Shown one piece after another: positions 16,212-44,846 of a stretch of DNA of 64,000 nucleotides. The translations under genes were made by a program, and so were the position numbers. Numbering within the stretch: the stretch's first letter is position 1; every line of letters starts with the position of its first letter. The stretch is from an uncultured Bacillota bacterium (lineage in GTDB: Bacteria > Sysuimicrobiota > Sysuimicrobiia > Sysuimicrobiales > Segetimicrobiaceae). The notes beneath the pieces were generated by a model. That model worked only from the letters and a program-made list of their open reading frames with translations, ran no database searches and was not told the origin of the DNA. The stretch covers positions 716,693 through 780,692 of the forward strand of contig CAWDRG010000009.1 in the NCBI GenBank assembly GCA_963804645.1. Reading direction: 5' to 3'.

Positions 16212-16946
16212 CTACAGATGCAGGGAGCGTTCCATGTTGAACTTGTAGCGGTCTCCCCGATACACCGCCTGGCGGTACTCGACTCTGTCGCCGTCGGGAC
16301 CATAGATGAGCGACGTTACGTTGAAGACGGCCGTCGGCGCGACCAGGTCCAGCATGTCGGCCTCCTCCGCGGTCGCCATGCGGGCCTCAAACGTCTGCTC
16401 CGCTTTGAGCTCGCGCACGCCGGCCCGCAGCGCGTAGTGCTCCGACGGCGCCGCCACGTCGCAGAACGCGACCAAGACCTCGTGCATCTTCGGCGCGGAG
16501 AAATAACTCTTGTAGAGGACGAGCGGTTCGCGGTCGCCAAGCCCGAGCCACACGAGCCGAATGAGCATGGCATTTGGCGGCACCGAGAGCAGGCGGCCGA
16601 GCACGAAATCGGCGGGCTCCTGCGTGCGCGCGATTACCCGCAGCGCGGGCGCCATGTCCTGGGCCGCCACCGTCTCGCGGAAGACGGTCGCATGCGCGAG
16701 CGGCTGATTGATCGGTCCGTGCCCGGTGACGAAGGTGCCGCGTCCCTGGACCTTCTTCAACATCCCGACCCGGGCGAGTCCGTCGAGAGCTTGGCGGACC
16801 GTGGAGCGGCTCACGCCGAACTGCTCGGACAACTCCCGTTCCGAGGGCAGTTGAGCGCCCGTCTCCCAATCCCCCCGCTGGATCCGGGTATTGATCGACC
16901 CGACGAGCTGCCGGTAGAGCGGCTGCTGGTCTTTGCTGTCGATCAC
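16212..16946 (-). CDS. GntR/HutC-family transcriptional regulator (wHTH + UTRA domain)
   Basis: PLYRQLVGSINTRIQRGDWETGAQLPSERELSEQFGVSRSTVRQALDGL is a GntR HTH. The C-terminal UTRA-like effector domain puts it in the HutC subfamily. Confidence 0.85.
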   Translation of the reverse strand: MIDSKDQQPLYRQLVGSINTRIQRGDWETGAQLPSERELSEQFGVSRSTVRQALDGLARVGMLKKVQGRGTFVTGHGPINQPLAHATVFRETVAAQDMAPALRVIARTQEPADFVLGRLLSVPPNAMLIRLVWLGLGDREPLVLYKSYFSAPKMHEVLVAFCDVAAPSEHYALRAGVRELKAEQTFEARMATAEEADMLDLVAPTAVFNVTSLIYGPDGDRVEYRQAVYRGDRYKFNMERSLHL

Positions 16947-25766: not shown

Positions 25767-26908
25767 TCCCCGCAATCGGCAGCGCGCTCCGTCTGGCCTT
25801 CGCGATGCTGTGGGAGATCCTGTGGCCGCTCGTCCTCGGCTTTCTGCTTTCCGCGATCGTGCAGGCGCTCGTGTCCAAGAAAGCGATGGTGCGGCTGCTC
25901 GGCAGTGACTCGCCGCGCTCCATCGCGCTCGCGACGCTGTTCGGGTTCGCGTCGTCGTCCTGCTCGTACGCCGCCGTGGCGCTGGCGCGCGCGCTCTTCC
26001 GGAAGGGCGCGGACTTCACCGCGGCGATCGTCTTCGAGTTCGCCTCCACGAACCTCGTCGTCGAATTGGGCATCATTCTGGCCGTCCTGCTGGGCTGGCA
26101 GTTCACCGCGGCGGAATTCGTCGGCGGGCCGATCATGATTCTGATCCTCTGGGGCGTATTTCGGGTCACGCTGCGCCGCTCTCTGGTGAGCGAGGCGCGG
26201 CGCCAAGCCGGGCGCGGTGCCGTCGGCCGCATGGAAGGTCACGCCGAGATGGACATGTCGGTCGTCGACGGGCGACCCTTTCTTGCACGGTTGATTTCTC
26301 CTGAGGGAATGACGGCGGTCAGCCACTACTTCATCATGGACCTGGCCGCGGTGTGGACGGATATCCTGGGCGGATTGCTGATCGCGGGCGCGATCGGCGC
26401 GTGGGTCCCGGCCACCTTCTGGAAGACGTTCTTCCTGGTCTCTCACCCGACCGCGGCGCTGATCTGGGGACCGCTGGTCGGGCCGCTGATCTCCGTCGTG
26501 TCGTTTGTGTGCTCGGTCGGTAACGTCCCGCTGGCAGCCGTCCTGTGGAACAGCGGCATCAGCTTCGGCGGGGTCGTCGCCTTCATCTTCGCCGATCTGC
26601 TGATTATCCCGATCCTGAACATTTACCGCAAGTACTACGGCGGCCGCATGGCGCTGTATCTGTTCGCCACGTCGTACGCGGCAATGGCCGCGGCCGGGCT
26701 GGCGGTCGAACTGCTGTTCCGCGCGGTGGGCGCGGTGCCCGCCGTGCGCCACGCGATCGTGCCGGAGGCCCATCTCACGCTGAACTACACGACCGTGTTG
26801 AACGTCGTCTTCCTTGCGATCGGTGCCGCGCTGCTGATCCGGTTTCTCAAGACCGGCGGCGCCGAGATGCTGGCGATGATGAACCGGCCGATGGGATCCC
26901 CCGAGTGA
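25763..26908 (+). CDS. DUF318/UPF0718-family permease
   Basis: About 380 aa, multi-TM, with the family-typical LFGFASSSCSYAAV segment. ATG overlaps the methyltransferase stop (ATGA). Confidence 0.7.
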   Translation: MIPAIGSALRLAFAMLWEILWPLVLGFLLSAIVQALVSKKAMVRLLGSDSPRSIALATLFGFASSSCSYAAVALARALFRKGADFTAAIVFEFASTNLVVELGIILAVLLGWQFTAAEFVGGPIMILILWGVFRVTLRRSLVSEARRQAGRGAVGRMEGHAEMDMSVVDGRPFLARLISPEGMTAVSHYFIMDLAAVWTDILGGLLIAGAIGAWVPATFWKTFFLVSHPTAALIWGPLVGPLISVVSFVCSVGNVPLAAVLWNSGISFGGVVAFIFADLLIIPILNIYRKYYGGRMALYLFATSYAAMAAAGLAVELLFRAVGAVPAVRHAIVPEAHLTLNYTTVLNVVFLAIGAALLIRFLKTGGAEMLAMMNRPMGSPE

Positions 26909-26947
26909 CCGCCGCGGCCCCGTCGGAGCCGCTGAGACCCTGCGCGC

Positions 26948-28225
26948 CTACAGCAGCGCGTGGGCCACTTTCCGGGTGGCGCGCACGATATCCGACTCGT
27001 CGCGTTCCGTGAAGAGCGGGTTCAGCTCCAGGAGCAGCACGCGCTTCAACAAGTCATCGCTCTGCGGGAACATCCCCTTCTCGAGCCGCGCCCGGCCCTT
27101 GTAGCGCGGGCACTGCCAGGAGCAGGGGTGCTCCGCGAACATCCGGCGCTCGATGATCTGGTCGAAGTGGTAGTAGACGTGCTGGCCGCTGTCCCACGCG
27201 ACCCCGACGTGCACCCCCTCGGCCGTCAGCGCGGTGCTGAACTCCCGCGCCGACTCCGCGGTCGGCAGGTAGAACATCAGCGTCGCCCCGGTGTCGCCGT
27301 CGGGGTCGGGCAGCCGGCGGATCGTCAGGCCGTCGATGCCGCGCAGCCCGTCGATCATCGCGGCCTTGTGGCCGCGCATCTGCTCGAGGATCCACTCCAT
27401 GCGCGCGAGCTGCACGAGCCCGAGCGCGCCCGTGATCTCGTTCATCCGGAAGTTGATGCCGATCATCAATTCGGTGCCGCCCGGAAACGTCTCGTCCAGC
27501 TCCTCCATCCGGATCGAACCCTGGTCGTGGTAGCGGACGGCCCGCGTCCACAGCTGGGGCGAGTCGGTGACGACGATCCCGCCTTCGCCGGTCGTGATGA
27601 CCTTGTGGTACTGCATGCTGAAGGCGCCGATGTCCCCGATCGTGCCGAGGCGCCGGCCCCGGTAACGCCCGCCGAGCGCCTGGGCGGCGTCCTCGACGAT
27701 GCGCAGGCGGTGGCGCTTGGCGATGTCGAGGATCGGGTCCATGTCCGCCCCGGCCCCGCGCATGTGCACCGGCAGGATGACCTTGGTGTACGGGGTGACC
27801 GCGGCCTCGATCTTGGTGGGGTCGAGGGTCAGCGTCTCGTCGATGTCGACGAACACCGGCACGGCGCCCAAGTGGACCACCGCGTTGATCGTGGCGATCC
27901 ACGTGTACGTGGGGACGATCACCTCGTCCCCCGGGCCGACGCCGAGCGCCGCGAGCGACGTCAGCAGCGCCGCGGTGCCCGAGGTGACCCCGACCGCGTG
28001 CTGCGCGCCCACGGCCTTCGCGAACGCCTGCTCGAACTGGGTCACCTTGTGGAGCGGGCGGGGACCATAGTGACGGAACAGACTCTGGCTGTCCAGCACC
28101 TCGAGCACCGCGGCTTTCTCCGCGTCCCCGATCAAGAGCCCTCCCGGGTACCCGGGCAGCAGCGGTTCCGTTCGAACCGGCGTCCCGCCGTGGACGGCCA
28201 AACGTTCCTCGGTGCCCTTTGGCAT
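26948..28225 (-). CDS. DegT/DnrJ/EryC1/StrS-family PLP-dependent aminotransferase
   Basis: Characteristic fold-type I sugar aminotransferase motifs (GVTSGTAALLTSL, DAAQALGG, FSMQYHKVITTGEGG). Confidence 0.85.
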   Translation of the reverse strand: MPKGTEERLAVHGGTPVRTEPLLPGYPGGLLIGDAEKAAVLEVLDSQSLFRHYGPRPLHKVTQFEQAFAKAVGAQHAVGVTSGTAALLTSLAALGVGPGDEVIVPTYTWIATINAVVHLGAVPVFVDIDETLTLDPTKIEAAVTPYTKVILPVHMRGAGADMDPILDIAKRHRLRIVEDAAQALGGRYRGRRLGTIGDIGAFSMQYHKVITTGEGGIVVTDSPQLWTRAVRYHDQGSIRMEELDETFPGGTELMIGINFRMNEITGALGLVQLARMEWILEQMRGHKAAMIDGLRGIDGLTIRRLPDPDGDTGATLMFYLPTAESAREFSTALTAEGVHVGVAWDSGQHVYYHFDQIIERRMFAEHPCSWQCPRYKGRARLEKGMFPQSDDLLKRVLLLELNPLFTERDESDIVRATRKVAHALL

Positions 28226-28252
28226 CTCTTCCCTCCCGGTTGGTCCGGCGGA

Positions 28253-29068
28253 TCAGCTCGCGTAGTCGGCGATGTGCTTTTTCATGCGGGCGGCGAGGCG
28301 CTCGACGTTGCGCTCGAGCCGCGCCGCGCCCTCTTCACGCGTCGCCAAGCGCGGGTCTTCCTCGGCGGGGAGCATGAAGTCGGGGGTCGGGTGCCCGTCG
28401 AACGCGGCGCCGTTGACGATGCCGAAGTCGCGGTAGCGCAGCGGCGTGCCCTTGGGCGGCAGCGCGCTCAGATCGACGCTGCCCGGCGCCTCCACCATCA
28501 TGAACGCGGTCTCGCCGCGTCCGGCGTGCCCCGGATCCTGGCCGGCCGGGGCGGGGGAGCCGCCCGCCGATTCGTACAGGACGGTGACCCGCGGCGTCTC
28601 GTTCTCCTCCAAGGCGACGCGGCGCAGCGCCCGCTGGTGGTTCGGGGCGCCGTGCCCGTTGATGATGACGATCAGCCGCCAGCTGTCCTGCTTCAGCAGC
28701 CGGACGATCTCGCGCACGACGACGGCGAACGTCCCTTCCTCGATGTAGAGGCTCTTGACGGGGAAGCCCGGGAAGTCCATGCCGACGACCCGCTCGTGCC
28801 CTTCGAAGCCGAGCGGGCGCAGGCCCTGGGGGCCGTCCGGGACGCGCACGGTCTCGGAGCCGAGGTGGTAGGCGGGGAGGACGACCCCGCCGACACGCTT
28901 GGCGACTTCGACGGCGACCCGATGGGCGGCCATCGCGTCCGTGCCCATGGGCATCGCGGGGCCGTGCCACTCGAGCGGCCCGAACGGCACGTACACGACC
29001 GGACAGCGCCGGCGCGCCTCCGCGATCTGCGGGGGGCGCATCAGCTCAAACTCGACCAACTCTGCCAT
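28253..29068 (-). CDS. creatininase-family amidohydrolase
   Basis: Creatinine amidohydrolase family metal-binding motifs (PFGPLEWHGP...GTD, INGHGAPNH). Confidence 0.8.
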   Translation of the reverse strand: MAELVEFELMRPPQIAEARRRCPVVYVPFGPLEWHGPAMPMGTDAMAAHRVAVEVAKRVGGVVLPAYHLGSETVRVPDGPQGLRPLGFEGHERVVGMDFPGFPVKSLYIEEGTFAVVVREIVRLLKQDSWRLIVIINGHGAPNHQRALRRVALEENETPRVTVLYESAGGSPAPAGQDPGHAGRGETAFMMVEAPGSVDLSALPPKGTPLRYRDFGIVNGAAFDGHPTPDFMLPAEEDPRLATREEGAARLERNVERLAARMKKHIADYAS

Positions 29069-29152
29069 GGGATCCTCCTCTGGAAACGCGGCTGCGCGGC
29101 CGCGCGGCGCGTCCGGACGGCTCCGCGCGGCTCACTGCTCCGTACCGGGCGG

Positions 29153-30622
29153 TCACGAAGACGTTTCGTCGTACCCCGCGACGTTCGTGATGATCGGGTG
29201 CCAGTCGAACTTGGTATCGAGCGGGTAGATCGGCCGCGTCACCTGCCGGTACGGCAGCCGCGTGAAGTCCATGTCCGCGTAGCCCGGGGTCAGGGCGAGG
29301 ATTTCCCTCGGCGCGATCGCCCGGATCGGCGCCATGAGGTAGCCGAGCTTGATCACCACCATCTTGTGCTTGAGCGGATCGATGCCCGCCTTCTTGAAGT
29401 CGTCCGGGTGCCGGTAGATGTACCGCCGGTCGGAGAGGATGACCCGGATGCCGTTCGCGTTGAGCGTCGCGAGCCTCGCGTCCCACGCCCCGGCCGCCGG
29501 CTGGTACAGATGCTCCACCGTGCCGGTCAGTTTGACGGGTCCGCCGCGGACCGTGTCGAGCTTGCCGCCGACCTCCACGGTGACCTTGGCGCCCTGCCCC
29601 GCCTTGAAGCACGCGTCGGTCGCGACGGCGTCGGGAAACCCCGCGACGACCGCGTCCGGCACCTTCTTGGCCACGAGCCGCGCCAGGAAGTGCGTCGAGT
29701 CGCCGGGTGCGCCCGCGGTCGGGTTGTCGCCGGAGTCCGCGATGAACACCGTGCGCTCCGACTTGAGCGCCTGGTCGATCGCCTCGTCGGCGGTCGCGGC
29801 GACCTCCTGGTCGAACACGAAGTGCTCGCGCTGATCCCACATCGCCTGCGCCATCCGGCGCGCCTGGCGGCGCGCCAGCGGGAGGGCCGCGTCGTTCTCG
29901 GCGGTCACGAGGACGTTGGCGCCGGCGTGCCAGGTGTCCGCCCACCCGAAGCCGATCAGCACCTCGGCGTTCAGGATGCCCGGCATCTGCTCGATCTCGA
30001 GCGCCATCTTGAGCATCGACTTCATCGGCTCGACCGCCATCGTGGACCGCTCGCCCGGCAGCAGGAGCGGAATGCGGATGAACACCGGCCGGGGCCGCAG
30101 CCGCCCGCGGACGACCTTCGTCAGGATGCCGAGCGTGCGCTGCAGCGTCTCGGGCGCGTCGGCGTGGGGCGCTGTGCGGAAGCACGCCCAGGTGTCGGCC
30201 TTGTTCGCGAACTCCTCGGTCAGGTTCGCGTGGGGATCCAACCGCACGGCGATCGGCAGGTCGCGCCCGACGGCCGCCCGGATCATCCGGACCTGATCGG
30301 TCTCGCCGCTCCAGACGTTCTCGACGAGCATCGCGCCGTGCAGGATCATGCAGATGCCGTCGAGCTTGCCGGCGTCCCGCAGCCGGGCGAGCGTCTCGTC
30401 CCGCAGCTCGAGGTACGTCCGCTCCTGCACCACGCCGGAGGGACAGCGAGCCGACGCGACGAGCAGCGGCACCGGCTCAAACTCGAACTTCTTCGCGGCC
30501 TCCGCCAGTCCGGCGTAGCCGAGGATGTCGGGCTCCCGCAGGACCCGGAAGTCCTCCATCGTCTGCGGGATGGGCGAAAACGTGAGAGCCTCGTGGCTGA
30601 TGCCGGCGATGCCGATGCGCAT
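29153..30622 (-). CDS. M81-family metallopeptidase (MlrC-like; DUF1485 + MlrC C-terminal domain)
   Basis: 489 aa. N-terminal MRIGIAGISHE and an overall architecture matching the microcystinase C (MlrC) family. Confidence 0.75.
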   Translation of the reverse strand: MRIGIAGISHEALTFSPIPQTMEDFRVLREPDILGYAGLAEAAKKFEFEPVPLLVASARCPSGVVQERTYLELRDETLARLRDAGKLDGICMILHGAMLVENVWSGETDQVRMIRAAVGRDLPIAVRLDPHANLTEEFANKADTWACFRTAPHADAPETLQRTLGILTKVVRGRLRPRPVFIRIPLLLPGERSTMAVEPMKSMLKMALEIEQMPGILNAEVLIGFGWADTWHAGANVLVTAENDAALPLARRQARRMAQAMWDQREHFVFDQEVAATADEAIDQALKSERTVFIADSGDNPTAGAPGDSTHFLARLVAKKVPDAVVAGFPDAVATDACFKAGQGAKVTVEVGGKLDTVRGGPVKLTGTVEHLYQPAAGAWDARLATLNANGIRVILSDRRYIYRHPDDFKKAGIDPLKHKMVVIKLGYLMAPIRAIAPREILALTPGYADMDFTRLPYRQVTRPIYPLDTKFDWHPIITNVAGYDETSS

Positions 30623-30632
30623 GCGTTCCCTC

Positions 30633-31502
30633 CTATTTGATCGCGCCGCTTCCCAGTCCCTGGACCACCCACCGCTGCAGGAGCACGAAGATGACCACGA
30701 GCGGGAGGCTGGACATGGTGGTGAGCGCCATGATGCCGTTCCAGTCGCGCACGTACTCGCCGAAGAACGAGGACATGCCGACGGTCAGCGTCTGCGAGTG
30801 CGTGGTCTCCGTGAGCACGACGGCGAGGAGATACTCGTTCCAGGCGCCGATGAAGATGAACGCGGCGACCCCTACGACCCCCGGCACGGCGAGCGGCGCC
30901 ACCACCTTCCAGAGCGTCTGGAGCCGCGTGCACCCGTCGATGAGCGCCGCTTCGTCGAGCTCGTGCGGAATCGAATCCAGGTAGGCCTTGATGAGCCAGG
31001 TCGACAGCGGCAGGAGAAACGCGGTGTTGGCCACGATCAGGCCGGGCACCGTGTCGTACAGCCCGACGACGTGGGCGAGGCGGAAGTACGGGATGATCAG
31101 GACGACCCGTGGCAGCATGAGGAGGCTCAGGATCGCCATCAGCATGACCTGGCCGCCGGGCAGCCGGAACCGGGAGAACCCGTAGGCCGCGAGCGAGCCG
31201 AAGAACAGCGCGAGGACGAGCGCGCCGAACGACAGCTCAATGCTGTTCTTGAAATAGGACTGGTACGTGGGGTTGTTGAGGATCTTTTCGAAGTACACGA
31301 GCGTGATCGATCTCGGCCACAGGACCGGCGGGTAGTTGAGCACTTCCCGGATCGGCCGCACGGCCGCGCTCACCATCCACGCGACCGGCACCAGGATCAG
31401 CACGGTCGAGAGGACCGTGAGGCCGACGACCCAGATCTGCCGGGAGACCTCCGCACGGCGGCGGCGCGAGCCCGCGGCGGACGCGACCGTGGAGGCTACC
31501 AT
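30633..31502 (-). CDS. carbohydrate ABC transporter permease (MalG-like)
   Basis: 289 aa, six TM, EAA loop (LDEAALIDGCTRLQTLWKVVAPL). The tool ORF is N-terminally over-extended. Confidence 0.8.
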   Translation of the reverse strand: MVASTVASAAGSRRRRAEVSRQIWVVGLTVLSTVLILVPVAWMVSAAVRPIREVLNYPPVLWPRSITLVYFEKILNNPTYQSYFKNSIELSFGALVLALFFGSLAAYGFSRFRLPGGQVMLMAILSLLMLPRVVLIIPYFRLAHVVGLYDTVPGLIVANTAFLLPLSTWLIKAYLDSIPHELDEAALIDGCTRLQTLWKVVAPLAVPGVVGVAAFIFIGAWNEYLLAVVLTETTHSQTLTVGMSSFFGEYVRDWNGIMALTTMSSLPLVVIFVLLQRWVVQGLGSGAIK

Positions 31503-32428
31503 GATTCCTGCTGCCGGCGCTGGAGGACGCGCAGGTAGACTTGGGTGATCACGGTAAGCAGCAGCAGCATGATCGTGCTGGCCGCGGCCCCTTCGGTCAG
31601 GTTCCCGTCCATCAGCCCCGTTCGGTAGATGTAAAACGCGACCGTTTCGGTCGCGCGGCCGGGCCCGCCCTGCGTGAGCATGTTGACGAGGTCGACGTGC
31701 CCGAACGTGGTGATGATGTCGAGCGTCGAGAGGGCCACGAGCACCCCCCTGAGCTGCGGCAGCGTGACCGCCCAGAACCGCTGCCACCCGTTCGCCCCGT
31801 CGACCTTCGCGGCGTCGTACAGCTCCGGCGGGATGTTCTGCAGACCGCCGAGCAGGGCGATCATGTAAAAGGGATAGCTCTTCCAGGTGTTGACGAAGAT
31901 GATCGAGGCGAGCGCGAGGTTCGGGTTGCCCAGGAAGTCGATCGGGCGGGTGATGTGCAGGACGCCCGTCGCGATGTAGTTGAACAGGCCGTACGGGTCG
32001 TACAGCAGCGACCACATGAGCGCCGCGGCCGCGGTGGAGAAGACCCACGGCAGGATGAGCGCGCCCCGCATGACGTTGCGCAGCGAGTGGCTGAACCACA
32101 CCTCGTGCAGCAGGAGCGCAAACGCGAGGCCGATCGACAGCTGCAGGACGACGGACGCCACGGTAAAGATCGACGTGTTCCAGACCGCGTTCCACCAGAT
32201 ATAGTCGCCCAGGATCTTGGTGTAGTGGGCCACGCCGACGAAGTGCCACACGCCGTTGTTCACGTCCTGCAGCCCCATGCCGATGACCGTGACGATCGGG
32301 TAGATCGCCGTCACGATCAGGTAGAGGATCACCGGCCCGACAAAGAGGTACCCGGTGGCATAGGCGGGCAGCCGGCGCCGGGACGGCGCCGTTGCGGCCG
32401 CGCGGGCCGGAGCTATCGCTCGTGCCAC
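31496..32428 (-). CDS. carbohydrate ABC transporter permease (MalF-like)
   Basis: 310 aa, TM-rich, permease signature (YDAAKVDGANGWQRFWAVTLP). Confidence 0.8.
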   Translation of the reverse strand: MARAIAPARAAATAPSRRRLPAYATGYLFVGPVILYLIVTAIYPIVTVIGMGLQDVNNGVWHFVGVAHYTKILGDYIWWNAVWNTSIFTVASVVLQLSIGLAFALLLHEVWFSHSLRNVMRGALILPWVFSTAAAALMWSLLYDPYGLFNYIATGVLHITRPIDFLGNPNLALASIIFVNTWKSYPFYMIALLGGLQNIPPELYDAAKVDGANGWQRFWAVTLPQLRGVLVALSTLDIITTFGHVDLVNMLTQGGPGRATETVAFYIYRTGLMDGNLTEGAAASTIMLLLLTVITQVYLRVLQRRQQESW

Positions 32429-32500
32429 GTGGGAGTCACCCGCTCTCGGAGACGCGCGCCCCGGCGCCCGTATCGGGCGCCGGGGCGGCGTCTGCGCGCG

Positions 32501-33772
32501 CTACTTGGACTGGTCGATCGCCTGCTGCCAGCCCGCGGCGATCTTGTCGAGGCCCTGCTGCGCCGTCTCCTTGCCGCTCATCATGTCCTGCCAGTCGCTC
32601 TTGAAGCTGTCGAACAGCCCGCCGGTGGCCGGCAGGATCGGCAGCGTGATGTTCGCCTTCGGGTCCTGATTCGCCATCTGCCCCGCGTACTTGAGCATCG
32701 GATCCGTGCTGCTCGACAGCGAGTCCATCGAGAACTTGTCCGCCCACGGGAGGCTGACGGCCTTGGTCATCATGATCGACGCCGGCTGGGAGTAGAGGTA
32801 CTTGAGGAACGTCCACGCCGCGTCCTTGTTCGGCGACTTGGCGCTCATCGCCACACCGCTGCAGCTCCACAGGTAGCCGCCCGTCCGAGCGTGCCACGGC
32901 GGCGCGTACGCGATCTTGATGTTGGGGTCGATCTGCTTGGCCTTGCTCCAGATGAAGGGCCCGTCGATGATGCTGTCGACCTGCCCGCTCGCGAGGTACT
33001 CGAGCATGCGGGTCTGGTCCTCGCCCATCGATCCGGGAACGGCCAGGCCCATGTCGTAGAAGCTCTTCCACCAGTTGACCGCTCGGACGCCGGCCGCGCT
33101 GTTCAGCGTGATGTGGCCGCTGGCGTCCATGAACTGACCGCCCTCCTGCGCGAGGCGGAAGCCGAAGTACCGGGTGGCGACAAACCCGCCGTCGCCGAAC
33201 GTGAGGCTCATGCCGTACCGGCTGCTGGAGGTGTGCATCGCCTTCTCGACCGAGACGAACTGGTCCCAGCTGGTCGGGGGCGACAGGTGCGCCTGCTGGA
33301 AGAAGTCGACGTTGTACGCGAACTGGTACGGGATCAGGTACAGGCAGAACGACAGGGTGTCGCCGTTGATCTTGCGCAGCGTGGTCGGCAGCAGCGTCTG
33401 GGCGAACGGCTTGTCCTTCGCCAGCCACGGATCCAGGTTCTCCACGTAGCCGAGCTTCTTCAGGCCGATCAGCCACGCGCCCTCGGTGCCGAAGACGTCG
33501 TAGTTCTCGCCCGCGGCGGCCGCGGCGTTCAGCTTGGTCGGCATCTCGGGGTAGGGGGTGTCGACGACGTCGACTTTGATGTTGGGGTTATCCTTCGCAA
33601 AGCCGGCCATCAGGGCGTTGAAGTTGTTGGGCCCCCACTCGTTGACCCACCACTCCATCCATTTGATCGTGACCTGCGAGGTGGCGGCGGTGGCGAACGT
33701 GGAGATCGACAGACTCAGGATCGTCGCAACGGCGACCAGGACGGCGGTACGCAGAACCGGTTTGTGCCGCAT
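32501..33772 (-). CDS. ABC transporter substrate-binding protein, family 1 (sugar-type)
   Basis: Signal peptide (MRHKPVLRTAVLVAVATILSLSISTFATAA) followed by a family-1 SBP domain. Confidence 0.8.
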   Translation of the reverse strand: MRHKPVLRTAVLVAVATILSLSISTFATAATSQVTIKWMEWWVNEWGPNNFNALMAGFAKDNPNIKVDVVDTPYPEMPTKLNAAAAAGENYDVFGTEGAWLIGLKKLGYVENLDPWLAKDKPFAQTLLPTTLRKINGDTLSFCLYLIPYQFAYNVDFFQQAHLSPPTSWDQFVSVEKAMHTSSSRYGMSLTFGDGGFVATRYFGFRLAQEGGQFMDASGHITLNSAAGVRAVNWWKSFYDMGLAVPGSMGEDQTRMLEYLASGQVDSIIDGPFIWSKAKQIDPNIKIAYAPPWHARTGGYLWSCSGVAMSAKSPNKDAAWTFLKYLYSQPASIMMTKAVSLPWADKFSMDSLSSSTDPMLKYAGQMANQDPKANITLPILPATGGLFDSFKSDWQDMMSGKETAQQGLDKIAAGWQQAIDQSK

Positions 33773-33893
33773 CGCGCTTCCCTCCCGAAGTGACGCCTTC
33801 GTGCGGGACACGCGGAGGAGCGCTGCCTCCCCCGCGTGCTTTCGCGTGGGATTAGGCGTTGGGGCGGCCGGTTCCTCCCTGCGGGGCGGGGGG

Positions 33894-34817
33894 TTATTTC
33901 CAGACGTGCACGTAGCTCGGGGGGAGGGTGAAGGTCTGCCGGCTGGCCTGGGCCGCCACCGTCAGGGCCGCCCCGGCCGCGCCCGCGGGCGTCTGATCCC
34001 AGACCCCGATGTCGAGCCGGGGGAGCCGGGCCGGGTCCGCGTGCCGTCCGACCGTCCAGCCGATCGTGGTGAAGAGGTAGTGATACCCGGCGGTGTTGGC
34101 GAGCGCGATCAATTCCGGGGTGTACTGGCCGTACGGGTACACCATGGCGTCGACGGGTTGTCCCGTTTCCTGTTCGACGATGGTGCGCGCCTTCACGAGA
34201 TCGGACGAGACCCGCGCGCGGTACTCGGCGTCGGTCTCGCGGCGCCCGTCCGGCAGGACGGCGATCCCCACCGTGGCGGCCGTGGTCGCGCCTCCCCCGA
34301 TGCCGATCCCGCGGTGCAGGTCGTAGGTCTCGGTGTAGAAGCGGACGAGGCCGGTCTGGCTCATCGCCTTGATCTCGTCCCAGGTGAAGTCGTGCGCGAT
34401 GCGGCCCACGTTGGCGACGATCAGGAACACCGCCGCGGGGATGCGGTCGTGCTCGAGGACCGGCAGCGCGTAGCGATAGATGCCCGCATACCCGTTGTCG
34501 AAAACGACGCAGACCGCGTTGGGCGGCACCGGCGCGCCGGCCGACACGAACCGCTCGAGGTCCGGGACGGACACGAAGTGAAATCCTTCGCTGAGCAGCA
34601 GGTTCATCTCCGCGGCGAACTCCTGCGGCGAGACCGTGTCCGTGTCGCGGGGTACCGTCGGCGAGACGTCGTGGTAGGTCAGAACGGCGATCTGGTCTTG
34701 ATAGTGGACGGGCGCCTCCGGCGCTGCGCCCGCGGGGGTGCCGGGCGCCGCGAGCAGCGCGGCGGCGCCGAGTACGAGCAGCGTGCCCCGTGCCCATCCG
34801 AGCCGCATGCGCTCCAC
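33894..34817 (-). CDS. polysaccharide deacetylase (NodB-homology, CE4) with signal peptide
   Basis: Secreted. NodB motifs VLTYHDV and VVFDNGY, plus downstream His motifs. Confidence 0.75.
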   Translation of the reverse strand: MERMRLGWARGTLLVLGAAALLAAPGTPAGAAPEAPVHYQDQIAVLTYHDVSPTVPRDTDTVSPQEFAAEMNLLLSEGFHFVSVPDLERFVSAGAPVPPNAVCVVFDNGYAGIYRYALPVLEHDRIPAAVFLIVANVGRIAHDFTWDEIKAMSQTGLVRFYTETYDLHRGIGIGGGATTAATVGIAVLPDGRRETDAEYRARVSSDLVKARTIVEQETGQPVDAMVYPYGQYTPELIALANTAGYHYLFTTIGWTVGRHADPARLPRLDIGVWDQTPAGAAGAALTVAAQASRQTFTLPPSYVHVWK

Positions 34818-34938
34818 CTCTCGTGCTGTCGCGCGAATTCGATCGTGACAGTTATAGCAGTGGACGCGCGGGGCCGCAAGCGGAGGCGCGCGCGCTCCCG
34901 GCGTTGCGGGCGCGCCCGGGGCGCGCTATGCTGGACCC

Positions 34939-35454
34939 GTGACCCGCCGCCGTCGCACCGCCGGCCGCAGTGACCGCGGATTTTCGCTGGTCGAGCTCGT
35001 GATCGCGCTCGCGGTCCTGGCGCTGATCCTCGGCATCGCGGTGCCGGCGTACCTGGGCAGCCTCGGAGGCGGCAAGCCCGGCACGAGCGTCGTCAACACC
35101 AAGAGCAACAAGGCGGCGGTCGACGAGGCCGCCGCCACGGCGGATGCCTGGCGTACGACCGCGTATACCTGCTACCTCCAGAGCCAGAACGCGACCTCGT
35201 GCAGCAGCAACGAGGCGATCGGATTCACGCAGCCGGCCGGCAAGTACTGGAACTGGACGTCGCAGCCGCAGAACGGGGTGGCGGGGGCAACGTACACCGT
35301 CGTCAACGCGGAGGGGGAGCCGGCCGCGCTGACCGTCTCCTGGCCGTCCAACAACGCCGGCCTCGAGAACGGCGAGACGTACGTTGTCAGTCTCTTCATC
35401 TCCGGGACGAGCCGGGGCCAAACGACCGCGACCTGCCTTCCGATCAGCTGCTGA
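34939..35454 (+). CDS. prepilin-type N-terminal cleavage/methylation domain protein (type IV pilin / pseudopilin-like)
   Basis: Class III signal (RGFSLVELVIALAVLALILGIAVP), with the Cys pair near the C-terminus typical of pilins. Confidence 0.75.
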   Translation: MTRRRRTAGRSDRGFSLVELVIALAVLALILGIAVPAYLGSLGGGKPGTSVVNTKSNKAAVDEAAATADAWRTTAYTCYLQSQNATSCSSNEAIGFTQPAGKYWNWTSQPQNGVAGATYTVVNAEGEPAALTVSWPSNNAGLENGETYVVSLFISGTSRGQTTATCLPISC

Positions 35455-41431: not shown

Positions 41432-42538
41432 ATGACGGATCCCAGGATCGAGAAGCTCGCCCGCGTCCTGATCCACTACGCGCTCCGCCTGGAACCCGGC
41501 CAGCTCCTGCGCATCCGCGGGCCCGCGCTCGCCGCGCCGCAGATTCTCGCCGCGTATCGTGAGGCGCTGGTCGCCGGCGCGCATCCGACGGTGCGGATCA
41601 GCGTCGAGGGCCTCGACGACATCTACTACCGCACGGCCACGGACGACCAGTTGCGCTACGTCTCGGCGCTCGACCGGCACGAGGTCGAGACGCTCGACGC
41701 GGAGCTGTCGTTTCTCGGCGCCTACAACACCCGGGCGATGACGCGGGTCGATCCCGGCCGGATGCGGATGCGCCGCGAGGCGACGCGGGAGCTGAGCCAG
41801 CGGTTCATGGAGCGGGCCGGCGCGGGCACGCTGCGGTGGTGCCTCACGCAGGCGCCGACCCAGGCCGACGCCCAGGAAGCGGAGATGTCGTTCGGCGAGT
41901 ACGAGGCGTTTGTATACGGCGCGGGGCATCTCGATGAAGACGATCCGGTCGCGGCGTGGGAGCACGTCGCGCGCGAGCAGGCGGCCGTCTGCGAGCGGCT
42001 CGCGCGCATGCGGACCCTGCGCATCGTCGCGCCGGACACCGATCTGACCGTGCACGTCGCCGGCCGCAAGTGGATCAGCGCGGCCGGGACGCACAACTTC
42101 CCGGACGGCGAGGTCTTCACGGGGCCGGCGGAGGACGCGACGCGCGGCACCGTCCGCTTCAGCTTCCCGGCGCTGTACGGCGGGCGCGAGGTCACCGACG
42201 TGCGCCTCGTGTTCGACGGCGGACGCGTCGTCTCGGCGACCGCGGCGAAGGGCGAGCAGCTCCTCCAGGCGATGCTCGACGTCGACGCGGGCGCCCGGGT
42301 CCTGGGCGAGTTCGCGTTCGGCCTCAACTACGGCATCCAGCAGTTTACGCGCAACATCCTGTTCGACGAGAAGATCGGCGGGACGCTCCACATGGCGCTC
42401 GGGGCCGCGTACCCGGAGACCGGCGGGAAGAACACGTCCGGCCTGCACTGGGATATGATCCTGGATCTGCGGGAGAACGGCGCGGAAGTCTTCGCCGACG
42501 GCGAGGTCGTCTACCGGAACGGCCGCTTCCTCACGTAG
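41432..42538 (+). CDS. aminopeptidase, M29 family (AmpS/PepS/aminopeptidase T-like)
   Basis: 368 aa with M29 family hallmarks (LARVLIHYAL, GTHNFPDGEVFTGP, FDEKIGGTLHMALG). Confidence 0.8.
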   Translation: MTDPRIEKLARVLIHYALRLEPGQLLRIRGPALAAPQILAAYREALVAGAHPTVRISVEGLDDIYYRTATDDQLRYVSALDRHEVETLDAELSFLGAYNTRAMTRVDPGRMRMRREATRELSQRFMERAGAGTLRWCLTQAPTQADAQEAEMSFGEYEAFVYGAGHLDEDDPVAAWEHVAREQAAVCERLARMRTLRIVAPDTDLTVHVAGRKWISAAGTHNFPDGEVFTGPAEDATRGTVRFSFPALYGGREVTDVRLVFDGGRVVSATAAKGEQLLQAMLDVDAGARVLGEFAFGLNYGIQQFTRNILFDEKIGGTLHMALGAAYPETGGKNTSGLHWDMILDLRENGAEVFADGEVVYRNGRFLT

Positions 42539-42827
42539 GCCGCTCCCCGCCGCGCGCGCGCTCGACGCGCTCGAAGAGGGCGGCGAACTCGGCCTCGGTG
42601 CGCTCGGTCACCTCCTCCGCCATCTCGGCGTAGCGGCGTCCCTCACCCGCCTTGATCTGGATGTTGGAGAGGACGCGGCCCTCGAGCTCGCGGAGGAGTG
42701 CGAGCACGTCGTCGGCCGGGACGCTCCCCCAGTCGCCCGCGAGCACGCGGTCCACGAACTCGTCGAGCGGGCGGGCGTCGTCTTCGCACACCTGCGCGTA
42801 CAGCTCCCACAGGCGCGCGCTCATTCG
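42531..42827 (-). CDS. hypothetical acidic small protein (98 aa)
   Basis: ATG overlaps the upstream debranching-enzyme stop (ATGA). Acidic, helical sequence. Confidence 0.45.
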   Translation of the reverse strand, partial: RMSARLWELYAQVCEDDARPLDEFVDRVLAGDWGSVPADDVLALLRELEGRVLSNIQIKAGEGRRYAEMAEEVTERTEAEFAALFERVERARGGERPT

Positions 42828-44809
42828 CCTGCGCCCCCGAGTTCCCACGCCTCGAGCAGCGCGGCGACGCTCCACGCCTGGGCGATGCATCCGGCCGCGC
42901 CGTACGGGGACGCTCCCTCGAAGATCTCGCTCACGGTGCCGAGTCCCGCCTCCAGCAGGTGCGCCCGGAACGGCTCGATGAGGCGGCGCGCCGCCGCGCG
43001 GTCGCCGGTCGCGCGCACGAGCGCCGTCGCGTACGGGCCGAGCCACCACGCCCAGACCGTGCCCTGGTGGTACGCCTCGTCCCGGGAGACGACCCCGCCC
43101 CGGTACCGGCCGCGGTAGGCCGGGTCGTCGGGGGCGAGCGACCGCAGGCCGAACGGCGTCAGCAGCTTCGCTCCCACCGCGCCAAGTACCGCGCGGGCCG
43201 CCGGCCCGTCGACCAGCGCGTGGGGCAGCGAGAGCGCGAGCAGCTGGTTCGGGCGGAGCGACCGGTCGGGCGTGCCGTCCGGCGCGATGACGTCGTACAG
43301 GTAGCCGCCGGCGTCGTAGAAGAACGCGCCCGAGAACGCGCGGCGAACCGCGGCCGCGCCGCTGGCGTACGCGGTGCCGTCCCGGCCGAGCATCTCCGAC
43401 CAGCGCGCCGCGACACACAGCAGTTCGTGCCAGAGCGCGTTCAGGTCGACCGCTTTGCCCATGCGCGGCGTGATCGCGCGGCCGTTCACGCGGGCATCCA
43501 TCCAGGTCAGGGCGAGCCCGGGCTCGCCCGCGGTCAGCAGGCCGTCGGCCGGATCGACGCGGATGCCGTGGCGCGTGCCGGACCGGTACCGTTCCGCGAT
43601 CTCCCGGATCGCCGGGTACACTCGCTCGAGGAGCTCGCGGTCCCACACGCGCGCGAGGTACCGGTCGAGCGCGTGCGCGTACCACAACGCCGAATCCGCG
43701 CTCGTGTACTCCGGAGGGGCGCCGTCGTCCGGGAACCGGTTCGGCAGCATGCCCTCGCTCACCACGTCGGCGAAGGAGCGGAGGATCTCGCGCGCGTCGT
43801 CGAGCCGGCCGGTGGCGAGCGTAAGCCCGGGCAGCGAGATCATGGCGTCGCGCCCCCAGTCCTCGAACCAGTGGTAGCCGGCGATCACCGAGTGCCGGCC
43901 GGCGCCCTGGACGAGGAACGCGTCCGCGGCGAGGACGAGCGCGTCGCGGAGCCCGCCGGGCCCCGGCAGCGTCGTGGGATCGCGCGGGAGCGCGCCGGCG
44001 CGGTCGATCAGCGTCTGCTGCCGGCGGCGCTCGTCTTCGTAGGTGGTGCCGGCCGCGGACGCGTCCGGCTCCGCGGAGACGCGCAGGGTGAGGTCCTCTC
44101 CCGGCTCGAGCGACGCCTCGAACACGCCGGGCACGTAGAGGTCTTCGATCGCGTCGAGCCCGCGGTCGCGCTCGACGCGGTGCAGGACGCGCCAGTACCA
44201 CGCCGGGGAGTCCGCGAAGCGGCCGCGGTCCACCGTGAGCGTGTACGGGACGGCGCCGGGCCAGGGCGTGACGCGGATGCCGCCCGGGATCGGCGCGACG
44301 TCGAACTGCCACCCGGGGTCGCCGTAGGTGTGCGTGTGGTGATCGCGCTCGGTCAGGTAGGGCCGGATCGCCATGCGCAGCGCCGGGCCGCCCGGGAGCA
44401 GCCGGTACCGGACGCAGGCGGTGTTCCGTCCGCGCGGCATCCAGACCGCCTTCTCGAGCACGGCGCCGGAGACCGCGAACGTCCAGACGGGAATCGAGCC
44501 GTCGAGCCGGAAGCCCGCGAGCGAGCGGTACCCCTCCGGGTCGATCGTCCCGTCGGCGTACTCGTTCGTCCCGAGCTCGACGAGGCGGCCGCGTCCATCG
44601 CGGAGATCGATCGTCTCGTCGACCTTCGCGACCAGCACGGTGCGGCGGACGGGCGGGGCGAGCGCGGCGACGAGGAGGCCGTGATAGCGGCGGGTGGTCG
44701 CGCCGGACACGGTCCCGGACGCGTAGCCGCCGATGCCGTTCGTGACGAGCCACTCGCGGCGGAGCGCCGCGTCGAGAAACGAGAGGAGGGAGTCCGGCAG
44801 GCTCAGCAT
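42821..44809 (-). CDS. glycogen debranching enzyme family protein (amylo-alpha-1,6-glucosidase, GDE N- and C-terminal domains)
   Basis: 662 aa. N-terminal GDE_N-like region (TNGIGGYASGTVSGATTRRYHGLL) and C-terminal (alpha/alpha)6-barrel region with GYHWFEDWGRD, typical of archaeal-type GDE/GH133. Confidence 0.8.
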   Translation of the reverse strand: MLSLPDSLLSFLDAALRREWLVTNGIGGYASGTVSGATTRRYHGLLVAALAPPVRRTVLVAKVDETIDLRDGRGRLVELGTNEYADGTIDPEGYRSLAGFRLDGSIPVWTFAVSGAVLEKAVWMPRGRNTACVRYRLLPGGPALRMAIRPYLTERDHHTHTYGDPGWQFDVAPIPGGIRVTPWPGAVPYTLTVDRGRFADSPAWYWRVLHRVERDRGLDAIEDLYVPGVFEASLEPGEDLTLRVSAEPDASAAGTTYEDERRRQQTLIDRAGALPRDPTTLPGPGGLRDALVLAADAFLVQGAGRHSVIAGYHWFEDWGRDAMISLPGLTLATGRLDDAREILRSFADVVSEGMLPNRFPDDGAPPEYTSADSALWYAHALDRYLARVWDRELLERVYPAIREIAERYRSGTRHGIRVDPADGLLTAGEPGLALTWMDARVNGRAITPRMGKAVDLNALWHELLCVAARWSEMLGRDGTAYASGAAAVRRAFSGAFFYDAGGYLYDVIAPDGTPDRSLRPNQLLALSLPHALVDGPAARAVLGAVGAKLLTPFGLRSLAPDDPAYRGRYRGGVVSRDEAYHQGTVWAWWLGPYATALVRATGDRAAARRLIEPFRAHLLEAGLGTVSEIFEGASPYGAAGCIAQAWSVAALLEAWELGGAGE

Positions 44810-44846
44810 CGCGCGCCGCGCGGCCGCCGGGACCCGCGGCGTCGCG

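What the first reader, a model, noticed from the sequence alone, without database searches (positions are those of the whole stretch)
26948..34817. Unusual catabolic operon: sugar-type ABC importer + M81/MlrC peptidase + creatininase-family amidohydrolase + DegT aminotransferase (+ secreted CE4 deacetylase upstream)
Eight co-directional genes combine a carbohydrate-type SBP and two permeases with two amidohydrolase-type enzymes (M81 MlrC-like and creatininase-like) and a DegT/StrS keto-sugar aminotransferase. A secreted NodB deacetylase lies just upstream. This composition suggests uptake and breakdown of an N-acylated or amino-sugar/aminocyclitol-containing compound, not a plain sugar. I do not recognise it as a described pathway.
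Basis: inference. Interest (0 to 1): 0.6.

Follow-up and report, generated by a model that had tools for sequence, protein, structure and literature searches.

The report
Amino-sugar or aminocyclitol conjugate breakdown operon
This is a real gene cluster, conserved in many uncultured bacteria, that most likely imports a sugar-like compound carrying an amide-linked amino group and breaks it down, but the compound is not identified and no described pathway matches it.

Summary
There are seven of them, not eight: a CE4 deacetylase, a sugar-type binding protein, two permeases, an M81/MlrC-like zinc hydrolase, a creatininase-family hydrolase and a DegT aminotransferase.

The refutation test fails: the genes are conserved together elsewhere.
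- Binding protein, permeases and M81 are syntenic in about 65 non-redundant loci.
- The creatininase-family gene follows M81 in 10 of 11 close relatives.
- DegT is linked in three independent ways. It sits in the same operon in 91-99% relatives. In 74-78% relatives it sits in a divergent LacI-DegT-Gfo/Idh/MocA unit that shares an 18-bp operator with the transporter operon. A DegT paralogue lies next to M81 in Caldilineaceae.
- The CE4 gene is conserved nowhere, and two of its three expected metal ligands are replaced. It is a neighbour, not a member.

In one relative, a 59%-identical creatininase-family gene and a 73%-identical DegT lie in an inositol regulon with a true IolM. More distant M81 relatives sit beside hexosaminidases and mannosidases.

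Best reading: uptake and catabolism of an N-acylated aminocyclitol or amino-sugar conjugate. The substrate is unknown, and I found no description of the pathway. Interest is moderate.

The parts
32501..33772 (-). Substrate-binding protein of a CUT1 (carbohydrate-type) ABC importer, secreted. It has a signal peptide but no lipobox cysteine.
   Evidence: Pfam SBP_bac_1, E=8e-34. Best solved relatives are the acarbose/maltose binder GacH and other sugar binders, all weak at E=1e-16 or worse. ATG at 33772 is preceded by GGGAGGG. Orthologues of 51-87% identity lie upstream of M81 in relatives.
31496..32428 (-). ABC permease 1 (MalF/UgpA-like)
   Evidence: Pfam BPD_transp_1. Best NCBIfam hits are UgpA, MalF and GlcT, all below cut-off. 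59-85% identical orthologues are syntenic in relatives.
30633..31502 (-). ABC permease 2 (MalG/GlcU/UgpE-like). Its ATG at 31502 overlaps the stop codon of permease 1, which suggests translational coupling.
   Evidence: Pfam BPD_transp_1. Best NCBIfam hits are GlcU, MalG and UgpE. Start read. Found upstream of M81 in 10/11 close relatives.
29153..30622 (-). Cytoplasmic M81-family zinc hydrolase (MlrC-like fold). Proposed to cleave the amide bond of the imported conjugate.
   Evidence: Pfam DUF1485 + MlrC_C. The NCBIfam MlrC model scores 143.7 bits against a cut-off of 999. PDB 7ylq matches at E=7e-40. The zinc ligands align to E11, D129, H131 and H153, which are invariant in 26 homologues. The MlrC general base E70 and binding residues N41, W59 and F67 are not conserved.
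28253..29068 (-). Cytoplasmic creatininase-family binuclear metallohydrolase. Proposed either as an IolN-like hydrolase that opens a diketo-cyclitol ring or as a second amidase.
   Evidence: Pfam Creatininase, E=5e-32. It scores below the curated cut-off of every NCBIfam equivalog: creatininase 60 vs 235, MftE 56 vs 172, IolN 33.5 vs 245. Metal ligands and the catalytic His are invariant (E33, H35, D44, H139, H181, E186), and there is a clade-specific insert of about 35 residues. It follows M81 in 10/11 close relatives. A 59%-identical homologue sits next to an IolM equivalog in L171.
26948..28225 (-). Cytoplasmic PLP-dependent DegT-family aminotransferase of the KdnA-like subgroup. Proposed to convert the freed amino group to a ketone.
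   Evidence: Pfam DegT_DnrJ_EryC1, 312 bits. No NCBIfam equivalog cut-off is reached. The best solved relative is KdnA (5k8b), E=4e-74 over the full length, with the PLP lysine retained in FSMQYHK. Orthologues of 73-99% identity lie in L089, L090, L007, L169, L171 and L172.
33894..34808 (-). Secreted CE4 (PgaB/IcaB-like) polysaccharide-deacetylase homologue. It is co-directional with the unit but not a conserved member.
   Evidence: Pfam Polysacc_deac_1, E=3e-16. The PgaB model scores 133 bits against a cut-off of 322. No homologue occurs in any related locus. FDNG replaces FDDG, and TETYDLH replaces the first-His motif of BpsB and IcaB.
33809..33838 (.). GC-rich inverted repeat (12-nt arms, 6-nt loop) in the 121-bp gap between the CE4 stop codon and the binding-protein start codon. 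It may be a transcript boundary or a regulatory hairpin.
   Evidence: repeat I1; sequence read. It has no T-tail, so it is not a canonical terminator.

Best explanation
The six genes from the binding protein to DegT form a catabolic operon for a sugar-like compound that carries an amide-substituted amino group. The most likely substrate is an N-acyl or N-peptidyl aminocyclitol (inosamine type), or a hexosamine-cyclitol conjugate.

Proposed sequence of events:
1. The secreted binding protein and the two permeases import the compound. They would use an ATPase encoded elsewhere.
2. The cytoplasmic M81 zinc hydrolase cleaves the amide and frees the amine.
3. The KdnA-like DegT aminotransferase converts the amine to a ketone (inosamine to inosose, or the equivalent on a sugar).
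4. After a further dehydrogenation by Gfo/Idh/MocA or IolM-type enzymes encoded elsewhere in this genome, the creatininase-family enzyme opens the keto ring hydrolytically, as IolN does in the Thermotoga inositol route. Alternatively it removes a second amide.

What is shown: gene content, intact catalytic residues, synteny, and co-regulation in relatives. What is inferred: every chemical step and the substrate class.
For: - Importer type: the binding protein and permeases are of the carbohydrate (CUT1) type.
- Localisation: only the binding protein and CE4 have signal peptides; the three enzymes do not.
- Intact active sites: M81 zinc ligands, the creatininase-family binuclear site and the DegT PLP lysine.
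- Synteny in close relatives (M81 at least 62% identical, 13 non-redundant loci): permease 10/11, binding protein 8/8, creatininase-family gene 10/11.
- DegT linkage, line 1: the order M81, creatininase-family gene, DegT is kept in L089 (99%) and L090 (91%).
- DegT linkage, line 2: in L007, L008, L091 and L110 a divergent LacI-DegT(78%)-Gfo/Idh/MocA unit abuts the binding-protein gene. A perfect palindrome, TGTCAAATCGATTTGACA, lies between them. The same operator precedes operons containing the creatininase-family gene in L169 and L171, and a transporter operon in L172.
- DegT linkage, line 3: 36 of 52 loci with M81 at 50-62% identity, mostly Caldilineaceae, carry a DegT paralogue, typically directly after M81.
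- Cyclitol link: in L171 the 59%-identical creatininase-family homologue is divergent from an IolM equivalog (540.6 bits against a cut-off of 450). It heads an operon with an IolG-like Gfo gene, an ABC importer, a GDPD gene and an inositol-monophosphatase-like gene. An IolO-like gene lies nearby. All of these sit behind the same operator as LacI-DegT(73%)-Gfo.
- DegT substrate type: its best solved relative, KdnA, acts on a free sugar acid. 2-deoxy-scyllo-inosose aminotransferases are also strong matches.
- L088 gathers DegT, Gfo, the transporter, M81, three further amidohydrolases and a creatininase-family gene in one cluster.
Against: - No enzyme was assayed and no ligand is known.
- The creatininase-family protein scores only 33.5 bits on the IolN model (cut-off 245). 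It scores higher on the creatininase model, so an amidase role is equally compatible.
- The window has no LacI, Gfo/Idh/MocA, IolM-equivalog or IolO homologue and no copy of the operator. The dehydrogenase steps must therefore be supplied from outside the 64 kb.
- Eight of 13 close-relative loci have no DegT within the fetched flank of up to 10 kb.
- More distant M81 relatives associate with hexosaminidases and mannosidases, not cyclitol genes. This points to amino sugars rather than cyclitols.
- N-acyl inosamines are not known to be abundant, yet the module is widespread in soil, sludge and sponge symbionts.
Confidence: 0.4

Rival explanations
1. Salvage of amino-sugar glycopeptides or glycoconjugates, for example GlcNAc-Asn or N-glycan cores, muropeptide fragments, or chito-oligomers. 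The importer takes up a hexosamine-containing fragment. M81 and the creatininase-family enzyme both act as amidases, removing peptide and N-acyl groups. DegT then deaminates the free hexosamine to a keto-sugar, which Gfo-type reductases return to central metabolism. No cyclitol is involved.
For: - Among 72 same-strand neighbours of M81 relatives at 35-48% identity there are four GH20 genes, two GH38, one GH123, one GH88, one AnmK, sugar transporters and Gfo/Idh/MocA genes.
- Bacteroides sp. GD17 has M81 with a sugar MFS transporter and a six-hairpin glycosidase-like protein.
- S. meliloti pSymB has RidA, MurR/RpiR, SDR, beta-N-acetylhexosaminidase, M81 and MFS genes next to a Gfo gene and a sugar ABC system.
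- L001 has a glucosamine-6-phosphate-isomerase-family gene divergent from the operon.
- The Gfo gene beside DegT in L007 is most like the sugar C3-dehydrogenase LgdA.
- The creatininase-family protein keeps all residues of an amide hydrolase.
- Peptide-type transporters and peptidases M19, M20 and M55 flank L003 and L005.
Against: - No glycoside hydrolase occurs in any locus with M81 at least 50% identical.
- The supporting M81 contexts are from relatives at 35-48% identity and may have a different specificity.
- The nearest informative context for the creatininase-family gene and DegT is an inositol regulon.
Confidence: 0.27
2. Two unrelated functions happen to be joined. The transporter, M81 and the creatininase-family enzyme take up and hydrolyse an unusual peptide-like or lactam compound. 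DegT belongs to a separate sugar or cyclitol regulon and landed at the operon's end by rearrangement, without sharing a pathway.
For: - Eight of 13 close-relative loci lack DegT nearby.
- DegT orthologues occur with LacI and Gfo without M81 in L169, L171 and L172.
- The only characterised M81 enzyme is a peptidase.
Against: - The shared operator places the M81 and creatininase-family operon and LacI-DegT-Gfo in one regulon in L007, L008, L091 and L110.
- The creatininase-family gene bridges both modules (L169, L171).
- An independent M81-DegT adjacency in Caldilineaceae uses a different DegT paralogue.
- L088 groups all of these genes together.
- The importer is of the sugar type, not the peptide type.
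Confidence: 0.12
3. A cell-surface polysaccharide or amino-sugar biosynthesis and modification locus. DegT makes an amino sugar and CE4 deacetylates an exopolysaccharide such as PNAG.
For: The DegT family is mostly biosynthetic. The CE4 protein resembles PgaB and IcaB.
Against: - There is no glycosyltransferase, nucleotidyltransferase, flippase or polymerase.
- A binding-protein-dependent importer is present.
- CE4 is not conserved and its metal ligands are degenerate.
- DegT is closest to an enzyme that acts on a free sugar acid, and its orthologues sit under a LacI catabolic-type regulator.
Confidence: 0.05
4. A microcystin-type peptide toxin degradation locus (MlrC) or a creatinine degradation locus, as the family names suggest.
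For: Pfam and JGI name transfer only.
Against: - The MlrC model scores 143.7 bits against a cut-off of 999, and the creatininase model 60.4 against 235.
- The MlrC general base and substrate-binding residues are not conserved.
- No mlrA, mlrB or mlrD genes, and no creatinase or sarcosine oxidase genes, occur in the window.
Confidence: 0.03

Closest known systems
Thermotoga maritima-type inositol catabolism (IolG, IolM, IolN, IolO with a sugar ABC importer; Rodionova et al. 2013, cited in PMC3750489 and PMC12632266)
   Same: A creatininase-superfamily hydrolase is used beside inositol-type dehydrogenases and a sugar-type ABC importer. In relative L171 a homologue 59% identical to the window's creatininase-family protein sits with an IolM equivalog, an IolG-like gene and an IolO-like gene under one operator.
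   Different: The window protein fails the IolN equivalog model (33.5 bits against 245). The window has no IolG, IolM or IolO. The Thermotoga route has no M81 hydrolase and no aminotransferase.
Microcystinase C (MlrC, peptidase family M81; PDB 7ylq)
   Same: The same two-domain fold family and the same four zinc ligands (PMC9982164).
   Different: The alignment is weak (141 bits in phmmer; no identity value computed). The proposed general base E70 and the binding residues N41, W59 and F67 are not conserved. There are no mlrABD neighbours. The gene is embedded in a sugar-type importer operon. Relatives sit beside glycosidases rather than peptide-degradation genes.
KdnA/KdnB (Kdo8N formation) and NtdC/NtdA (kanosamine formation): dehydrogenase plus DegT aminotransferase pairs that act on sugars not linked to nucleotides
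   Same: DegT is most similar to KdnA over its full length (253 bits). Its orthologues are paired with a Gfo/Idh/MocA dehydrogenase, the same hydroxyl-ketone-amine logic.
   Different: Those pairs are biosynthetic. Here the pair sits under a LacI-type regulator with importers and hydrolases, so the reverse, catabolic direction is inferred. There is no KdnB-type iron alcohol dehydrogenase here.
Rhizopine (scyllo-inosamine) catabolism, moc genes
   Same: A binding-protein-dependent importer plus a MocA-family dehydrogenase for an aminocyclitol. This is from my own knowledge and was not tested here.
   Different: The moc loci have no M81, creatininase-family or DegT gene, and they use oxygenase components that are absent here.
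Ectoine degradation (DoeA/DoeB/DoeD)
   Same: The same logic of a ring or amide hydrolase, then a deacylase, then an aminotransferase. This is from my own knowledge.
   Different: The protein families and the transporter type are entirely different. It is an analogy only.

Membership tests
Microcystinase MlrC (M81) | Two-domain M81 architecture (DUF1485 + MlrC_C) | tested here: met
   Pfam 264 and 156 bits.
Microcystinase MlrC (M81) | Zinc ligands E39, D167, H169 and H191 of MlrC | tested here: met
   They align to E11, D129, H131 and H153, which are invariant in alignment A1.
Microcystinase MlrC (M81) | Curated NCBIfam score for MlrC | tested here: not met
   143.7 bits against a cut-off of 999.
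Microcystinase MlrC (M81) | General base E70 and substrate-binding residues N41, W59 and F67 | tested here: not met
   They align to Y36, L13, a gap and I. The alignment runs through a loop region, so it is of moderate reliability.
Microcystinase MlrC (M81) | Neighbouring mlrA, mlrB and mlrD genes | tested here: not met
   None were found among the window genes that were annotated.
Creatinine amidohydrolase | Creatininase fold with a binuclear metal site and a catalytic His | tested here: met
   PF02633 at 111.7 bits. E33, H35, D44, H139, H181 and E186 are invariant.
Creatinine amidohydrolase | Curated equivalog score (TIGR04448) | tested here: not met
   60.4 bits against 235.
IolN (3-dehydro-scyllo-inosose hydrolase) | Curated equivalog score (NF041098) | tested here: not met
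   33.5 bits against 245, covering the N-terminal region only. The L171 homologue scores 31.2 bits.
IolN (3-dehydro-scyllo-inosose hydrolase) | Genomic association with IolM, IolG and IolO | tested here: inconclusive
   Met for the 59%-identical homologue in L171, where IolM scores 540.6 bits against 450. Not met in the window itself.
MftE (mycofactocin peptidase) | Curated score (TIGR03964) | tested here: not met
   55.6 bits against 172. Whether mycofactocin genes lie elsewhere in the window was not checked.
DegT/DnrJ/EryC1/StrS aminotransferases | Family domain and PLP lysine | tested here: met
   PF01041 at 312 bits. The lysine in FSMQYHK aligns to the KdnA lysine.
Named nucleotide-sugar aminotransferases (PseC, ArnB, LegC, WecE, DesI) | Curated equivalog scores | tested here: not met
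   All are far below cut-off, for example PseC at 203 bits against 423 and ArnB at 200 against 631.
KdnA (Kdo8N transaminase) | Close similarity plus a KdnB partner | tested here: inconclusive
   Full-length match at 253 bits. No curated threshold is available, and no iron alcohol dehydrogenase lies in the operon.
CUT1 carbohydrate ABC importer | SBP_bac_1 binding protein plus two MalF/MalG-type permeases | tested here: met
CUT1 carbohydrate ABC importer | Cognate ATPase | tested here: not met
   None lies in the cluster. From general knowledge, shared ATPases are common for this family.
CE4 polysaccharide deacetylase | NodB domain | tested here: met
   PF01522 at 59.8 bits.
CE4 polysaccharide deacetylase | Asp-His-His metal triad | tested here: not met
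   FDNG replaces FDDG, and Glu replaces the first His, in alignments to 5bu6 and 4wcj.
LacI(DegT-linked) regulon seen in relatives | Operator TGTCAAATCGATTTGACA upstream of the operon | tested here: not met
   No match with up to 3 mismatches anywhere in the window. It is present in L007, L008, L091, L110, L169, L171, L172 and L173.

The most novel reading that the evidence does not exclude
In this branch the M81 family is not a peptidase family. It would be a deacylase for amino-sugar or cyclitol conjugates, and the module would scavenge hexosamine-inositol compounds: mycothiol (AcCys-GlcN-inositol), or GlcN-inositol head groups released from GPI or GIPC lipids. In that case M81 would split the amide, DegT with a C3-dehydrogenase-like Gfo enzyme would dispose of the glucosamine without a glycosidase, and the divergent creatininase-family enzyme would replace IolN in opening the inositol ring. 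This would be a new, environmentally widespread catabolic pathway and the first non-peptide function for M81.
Probability: 0.1. Interest if true: 0.75.

Novelty: new variant of a known kind. Interest (0 to 1): 0.48.

Why it matters
- M81 has a single characterised member (microcystinase C), and the creatininase superfamily has only a handful of known reactions. This work gives both families a conserved, testable context: a sugar-type importer, a DegT/Gfo pair and a defined LacI operator.
- The module occurs in soil bacteria, activated-sludge and sponge-symbiont Caldilineaceae, and in looser form in Bacteroidales and rhizobia. Identifying the substrate would therefore annotate thousands of genes now mislabelled "microcystin degradation protein" or "creatinine amidohydrolase".
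- It could reveal how a common nitrogen-containing glycoconjugate or cyclitol is recycled.
- It would also show a catabolic role for DegT-type aminotransferases, which are normally regarded as biosynthetic.

Tried and rejected
- Sigma-70 promoter and terminator scan of 26700-35100: no promoter-like sites, and terminator-like sites at chance level.
- Rfam scan of the whole window: only two tRNAs, and no riboswitch in the leaders.
- Search for the relatives' LacI operator in the window: none with up to 3 mismatches, and one unrelated site at 4 mismatches.
- tblastn of LacI, Gfo, IolM, IolO, FAD-oxidoreductase, PhyH and arginase partners against the window: only a generic Zn-ADH at 60992-61981.
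- Literature searches for M81/MlrC plus creatininase, DUF1485, the M81 family with ABC transporters, DegT plus MocA plus LacI, creatininase plus inosose, and MlrC in S. meliloti: no described pathway. The Rodionova 2013 paper was not held.
- Plasmid search with the creatininase-family protein: only relatives at 31% identity or less, which were not informative.
- Microcystin, creatinine and mycofactocin readings: rejected on curated score cut-offs and on context.
- A link to guanidino compounds (arginase-family genes next to the creatininase-family gene in L007 and L086, and arginine-biosynthesis genes around L087) and a streptothricin or aminoglycoside reading: considered but not pursued. The associations are on the opposite strand and are not recurrent.
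- Structure prediction was not run. Locus-derived sequences cannot be submitted, and fold matches would only return MlrC and creatininase.

Full report
**Observation**

The region 26948-34817 contains seven co-directional minus-strand genes with very high third-position GC (0.92-0.96), which marks them as real genes in this 65-73% GC window. Pfam assigns them as follows:
- a CE4 polysaccharide deacetylase (34808..33894)
- an SBP_bac_1 binding protein (33772..32501)
- two BPD_transp_1 permeases (32428..31496 and 31502..30633; the second start overlaps the first stop)
- an M81 protein with DUF1485 and MlrC_C domains (30622..29153)
- a creatininase-family protein (29068..28253)
- a DegT aminotransferase (28225..26948)

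No ABC ATPase is present. Only CE4 and the binding protein have signal peptides. The unit is bounded by a convergent ArsP-type permease gene and a divergent pilin-like gene.

**None of the enzymes belongs to the characterised family it is named after**

NCBIfam curated cut-offs are missed by wide margins:

| Model | Score (bits) | Cut-off (bits) |
|---|---|---|
| MlrC | 143.7 | 999 |
| Creatininase | 60.4 | 235 |
| MftE | 55.6 | 172 |
| IolN | 33.5 | 245 |

No nucleotide-sugar aminotransferase equivalog is reached by DegT either.

The active sites are nevertheless intact.
- The four MlrC zinc ligands (PMC9982164) align to E11, D129, H131 and H153, which are invariant among 26 homologues.
- MlrC's proposed general base E70 and several of its substrate-binding residues are not conserved.
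- The creatininase-family protein keeps the binuclear-site ligands and the catalytic His. It also has a clade-specific insert of about 35 residues with invariant positions.
- DegT is most similar, over its full length, to KdnA (5k8b, E=4e-74), an enzyme that acts on a free sugar acid. It keeps the PLP lysine.

I fetched 174 related loci from genomes and metagenomes and scored them by tblastn.

| M81 identity to window | Loci | Permease upstream | Binding protein upstream | Creatininase-family gene downstream | DegT in locus |
|---|---|---|---|---|---|
| At least 62% | 13 non-redundant | 10/11 | 8/8 | 10/11 | 5/13 |
| 50-62% (mostly Caldilineaceae from sludge and sponges) | 52 | 29/46 | 25/40 | 0/47 | 36/52 |

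- In the Caldilineaceae group the DegT is a paralogue (38% identical), typically directly after M81 and followed by a PhyH dioxygenase gene.
- The window's own order (M81, creatininase-family gene, DegT) is kept in the 99% and 91% relatives L089 and L090.
- CE4 has no homologue in any locus.

**A shared operator**

In the 74-78% relatives (L007, L008, L091, L110; MAGs labelled Bacillota), DegT (78% identical) lies in a divergent LacI-DegT-Gfo/Idh/MocA unit directly upstream of the binding-protein gene.

The intergenic region carries a perfect 18-bp palindrome, TGTCAAATCGATTTGACA. The same sequence occurs in three other contexts:
- between LacI-DegT(79.5%) and an operon of two FAD oxidoreductase genes plus a creatininase-family gene, in L169
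- between LacI-DegT-Gfo-Gfo and an operon of two FAD oxidoreductase genes plus a sugar transporter, in L172 and L173
- three times in L171

This places M81, the creatininase-family gene, DegT, Gfo and the sugar-type importers in one regulon in relatives. The window has no such operator and no LacI gene. Here DegT has instead been joined to the operon itself.

**What the regulon is about**

In L171 the operator sits between two transcription units.
- On one side is a Zn-dehydrogenase gene that passes the curated IolM (scyllo-inosose 3-dehydrogenase) equivalog threshold (540.6 bits against 450).
- On the other side is an operon that starts with the creatininase-family gene (59% identical to the window's). 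It continues with an IolG-like Gfo gene, an ABC importer, a glycerophosphodiesterase gene and an inositol-monophosphatase-like gene.
- An IolO-like epimerase gene lies behind a third operator copy.

This is the enzyme set of the Thermotoga-type inositol route, with the window-type creatininase-family protein in the place of IolN, itself a creatininase-superfamily enzyme. DegT orthologues (73-80% identical) are constant members of this regulon. Together with the DegT family's known inosose aminotransferases, this suggests amine-to-ketone conversion on a cyclitol or sugar ring.

**What M81 is about**

Nothing is published on M81 beyond MlrC.
- Same-strand neighbours of M81 relatives at 35-48% identity include four GH20 genes, two GH38, one GH123, one GH88, one AnmK, sugar transporters and Gfo genes.
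- Bacteroides sp. GD17 has M81 with a sugar MFS transporter and a glycosidase-like protein.
- S. meliloti pSymB has RidA, MurR, SDR, beta-N-acetylhexosaminidase, M81 and MFS genes beside a Gfo gene, a sugar ABC system and a second M81 gene.

This branch of M81 is therefore embedded in amino-sugar and glycoconjugate metabolism rather than peptide metabolism. Cleavage of an amide on a sugar-like scaffold is the most economical role.

**Synthesis**

The best-supported reading (confidence 0.40) is import of an amide-substituted amino-cyclitol or amino-sugar conjugate, followed by:
1. deacylation by M81
2. transamination by DegT
3. action of the creatininase-family enzyme, either as an IolN-like ring-opening hydrolase after dehydrogenation, or as a second amidase

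The main rival (0.27) is glycopeptide or hexosamine-conjugate salvage with both hydrolases acting as amidases. Less likely readings are:
- an accidental fusion of two pathways (0.12)
- a biosynthetic locus (0.05)
- the name-derived microcystin or creatinine functions (0.03)

A unifying but speculative substrate class is hexosamine-inositol conjugates such as mycothiol or GPI/GIPC head groups.

**The CE4 gene**

CE4 should be dropped from the unit.
- It is not conserved.
- It is separated from the binding-protein gene by 121 bp containing a GC-rich hairpin.
- FDNG replaces FDDG, and Glu replaces the first His, in its metal triad.

**Verdict**

It is not an exotic new system but an uncharacterised, widely distributed variant of a sugar-type catabolic operon built from poorly understood enzyme families. 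All chemistry is inferred; the assays listed under next steps would decide it.

Noticed in passing
L007 6631-6648; L008 and L091 6637-6654; L110 6631-6648; L169 5826-5843; L171 2947, 8562 and 18179; L172 and L173 8807-8824: A perfect 18-bp palindrome, TGTCAAATCGATTTGACA, recurs next to LacI-DegT-Gfo units and in front of several different catabolic operons. It is a candidate operator that defines an uncharacterised regulon. It is absent from the window.
   Followed up: yes
L171 7283-8452 (-), 9001-16560 (+), 16573-17445 (-): A Thermotoga-type inositol gene set (an IolM equivalog above the curated cut-off, plus IolG-like, IolO-like, GDPD and inositol-monophosphatase-like genes). The IolN position is filled by a creatininase-family protein that fails the IolN model. 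This may be a second IolN lineage.
   Followed up: partly
window 33894-34808 (-): The secreted CE4 homologue has FDNG instead of FDDG, and Glu instead of the first His of the metal-binding motif, compared with BpsB and IcaB. It may be inactive or use different chemistry. A second, more canonical-looking CE4 gene lies at 50553-51323.
   Followed up: partly
L071 8504-9901, and homologues in L053, L066, L067, L068, L072, L077, L078, L082, L125, L127, L129, L131, L145, L161 and L162: A conserved protein of about 465 residues with no Pfam match has homologues in 16 M81 loci. It lies directly upstream of M81 in the eight Bacteroidales-type loci that were examined (57-64% identical to one another). 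It is an unknown partner of M81.
   Followed up: partly
L175 and L176 (S. meliloti pSymB, CP130053.1, 509691-525038): A cultured, genetically tractable organism carries two M81 genes with a beta-N-acetylhexosaminidase gene, a MurR/RpiR regulator gene, RidA, SDR and GNAT genes, a Gfo/Idh/MocA gene and a sugar ABC system. This would be a convenient place to test M81 function.
   Followed up: no
L053 10001-12906; L103, L104 and L105: Tandem duplicated M81 genes (41-52% identical to the window protein) lie downstream of the same type of permease.
   Followed up: no
L085 13028-13756 and other Caldilineaceae loci: In L085 a PhyH-family dioxygenase gene follows M81-DegT. The other Caldilineaceae loci were not checked for it. 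KanJ-type oxidative deamination of an amino sugar is one possibility, from my own knowledge.
   Followed up: no
L007 12485-13432 (-); L086 4340-5287 (-): An arginase-family gene lies convergent to the creatininase-family gene in two related lineages. In L087 the operon is inserted between arginine-biosynthesis genes and carAB. This may hint at a guanidino or arginine-related substrate, or it may be coincidence.
   Followed up: no
window 8757-16946 (-): A second sugar-type ABC system (binding protein 13868-15304, permeases 10390-12292) lies with two large proteins that have no Pfam match (8757-10379 and 12118-13857) and a GntR/UTRA regulator gene (16212-16946).
   Followed up: no
window 34810-34870: An imperfect palindrome, CTGTCACG-N8-CGCGACAG, lies about 25-50 nt upstream of the CE4 start codon, in the divergent region shared with the pilin-like gene at 34939-35454. 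It may be an operator.
   Followed up: no
window 42000-52000: GC content rises to 0.73-0.74, against 0.62-0.69 in most of the rest of the window. The stretch holds genes for a glycogen-debranching enzyme, pyruvate kinase, MFS and LysE transporters and the second CE4.
   Followed up: no
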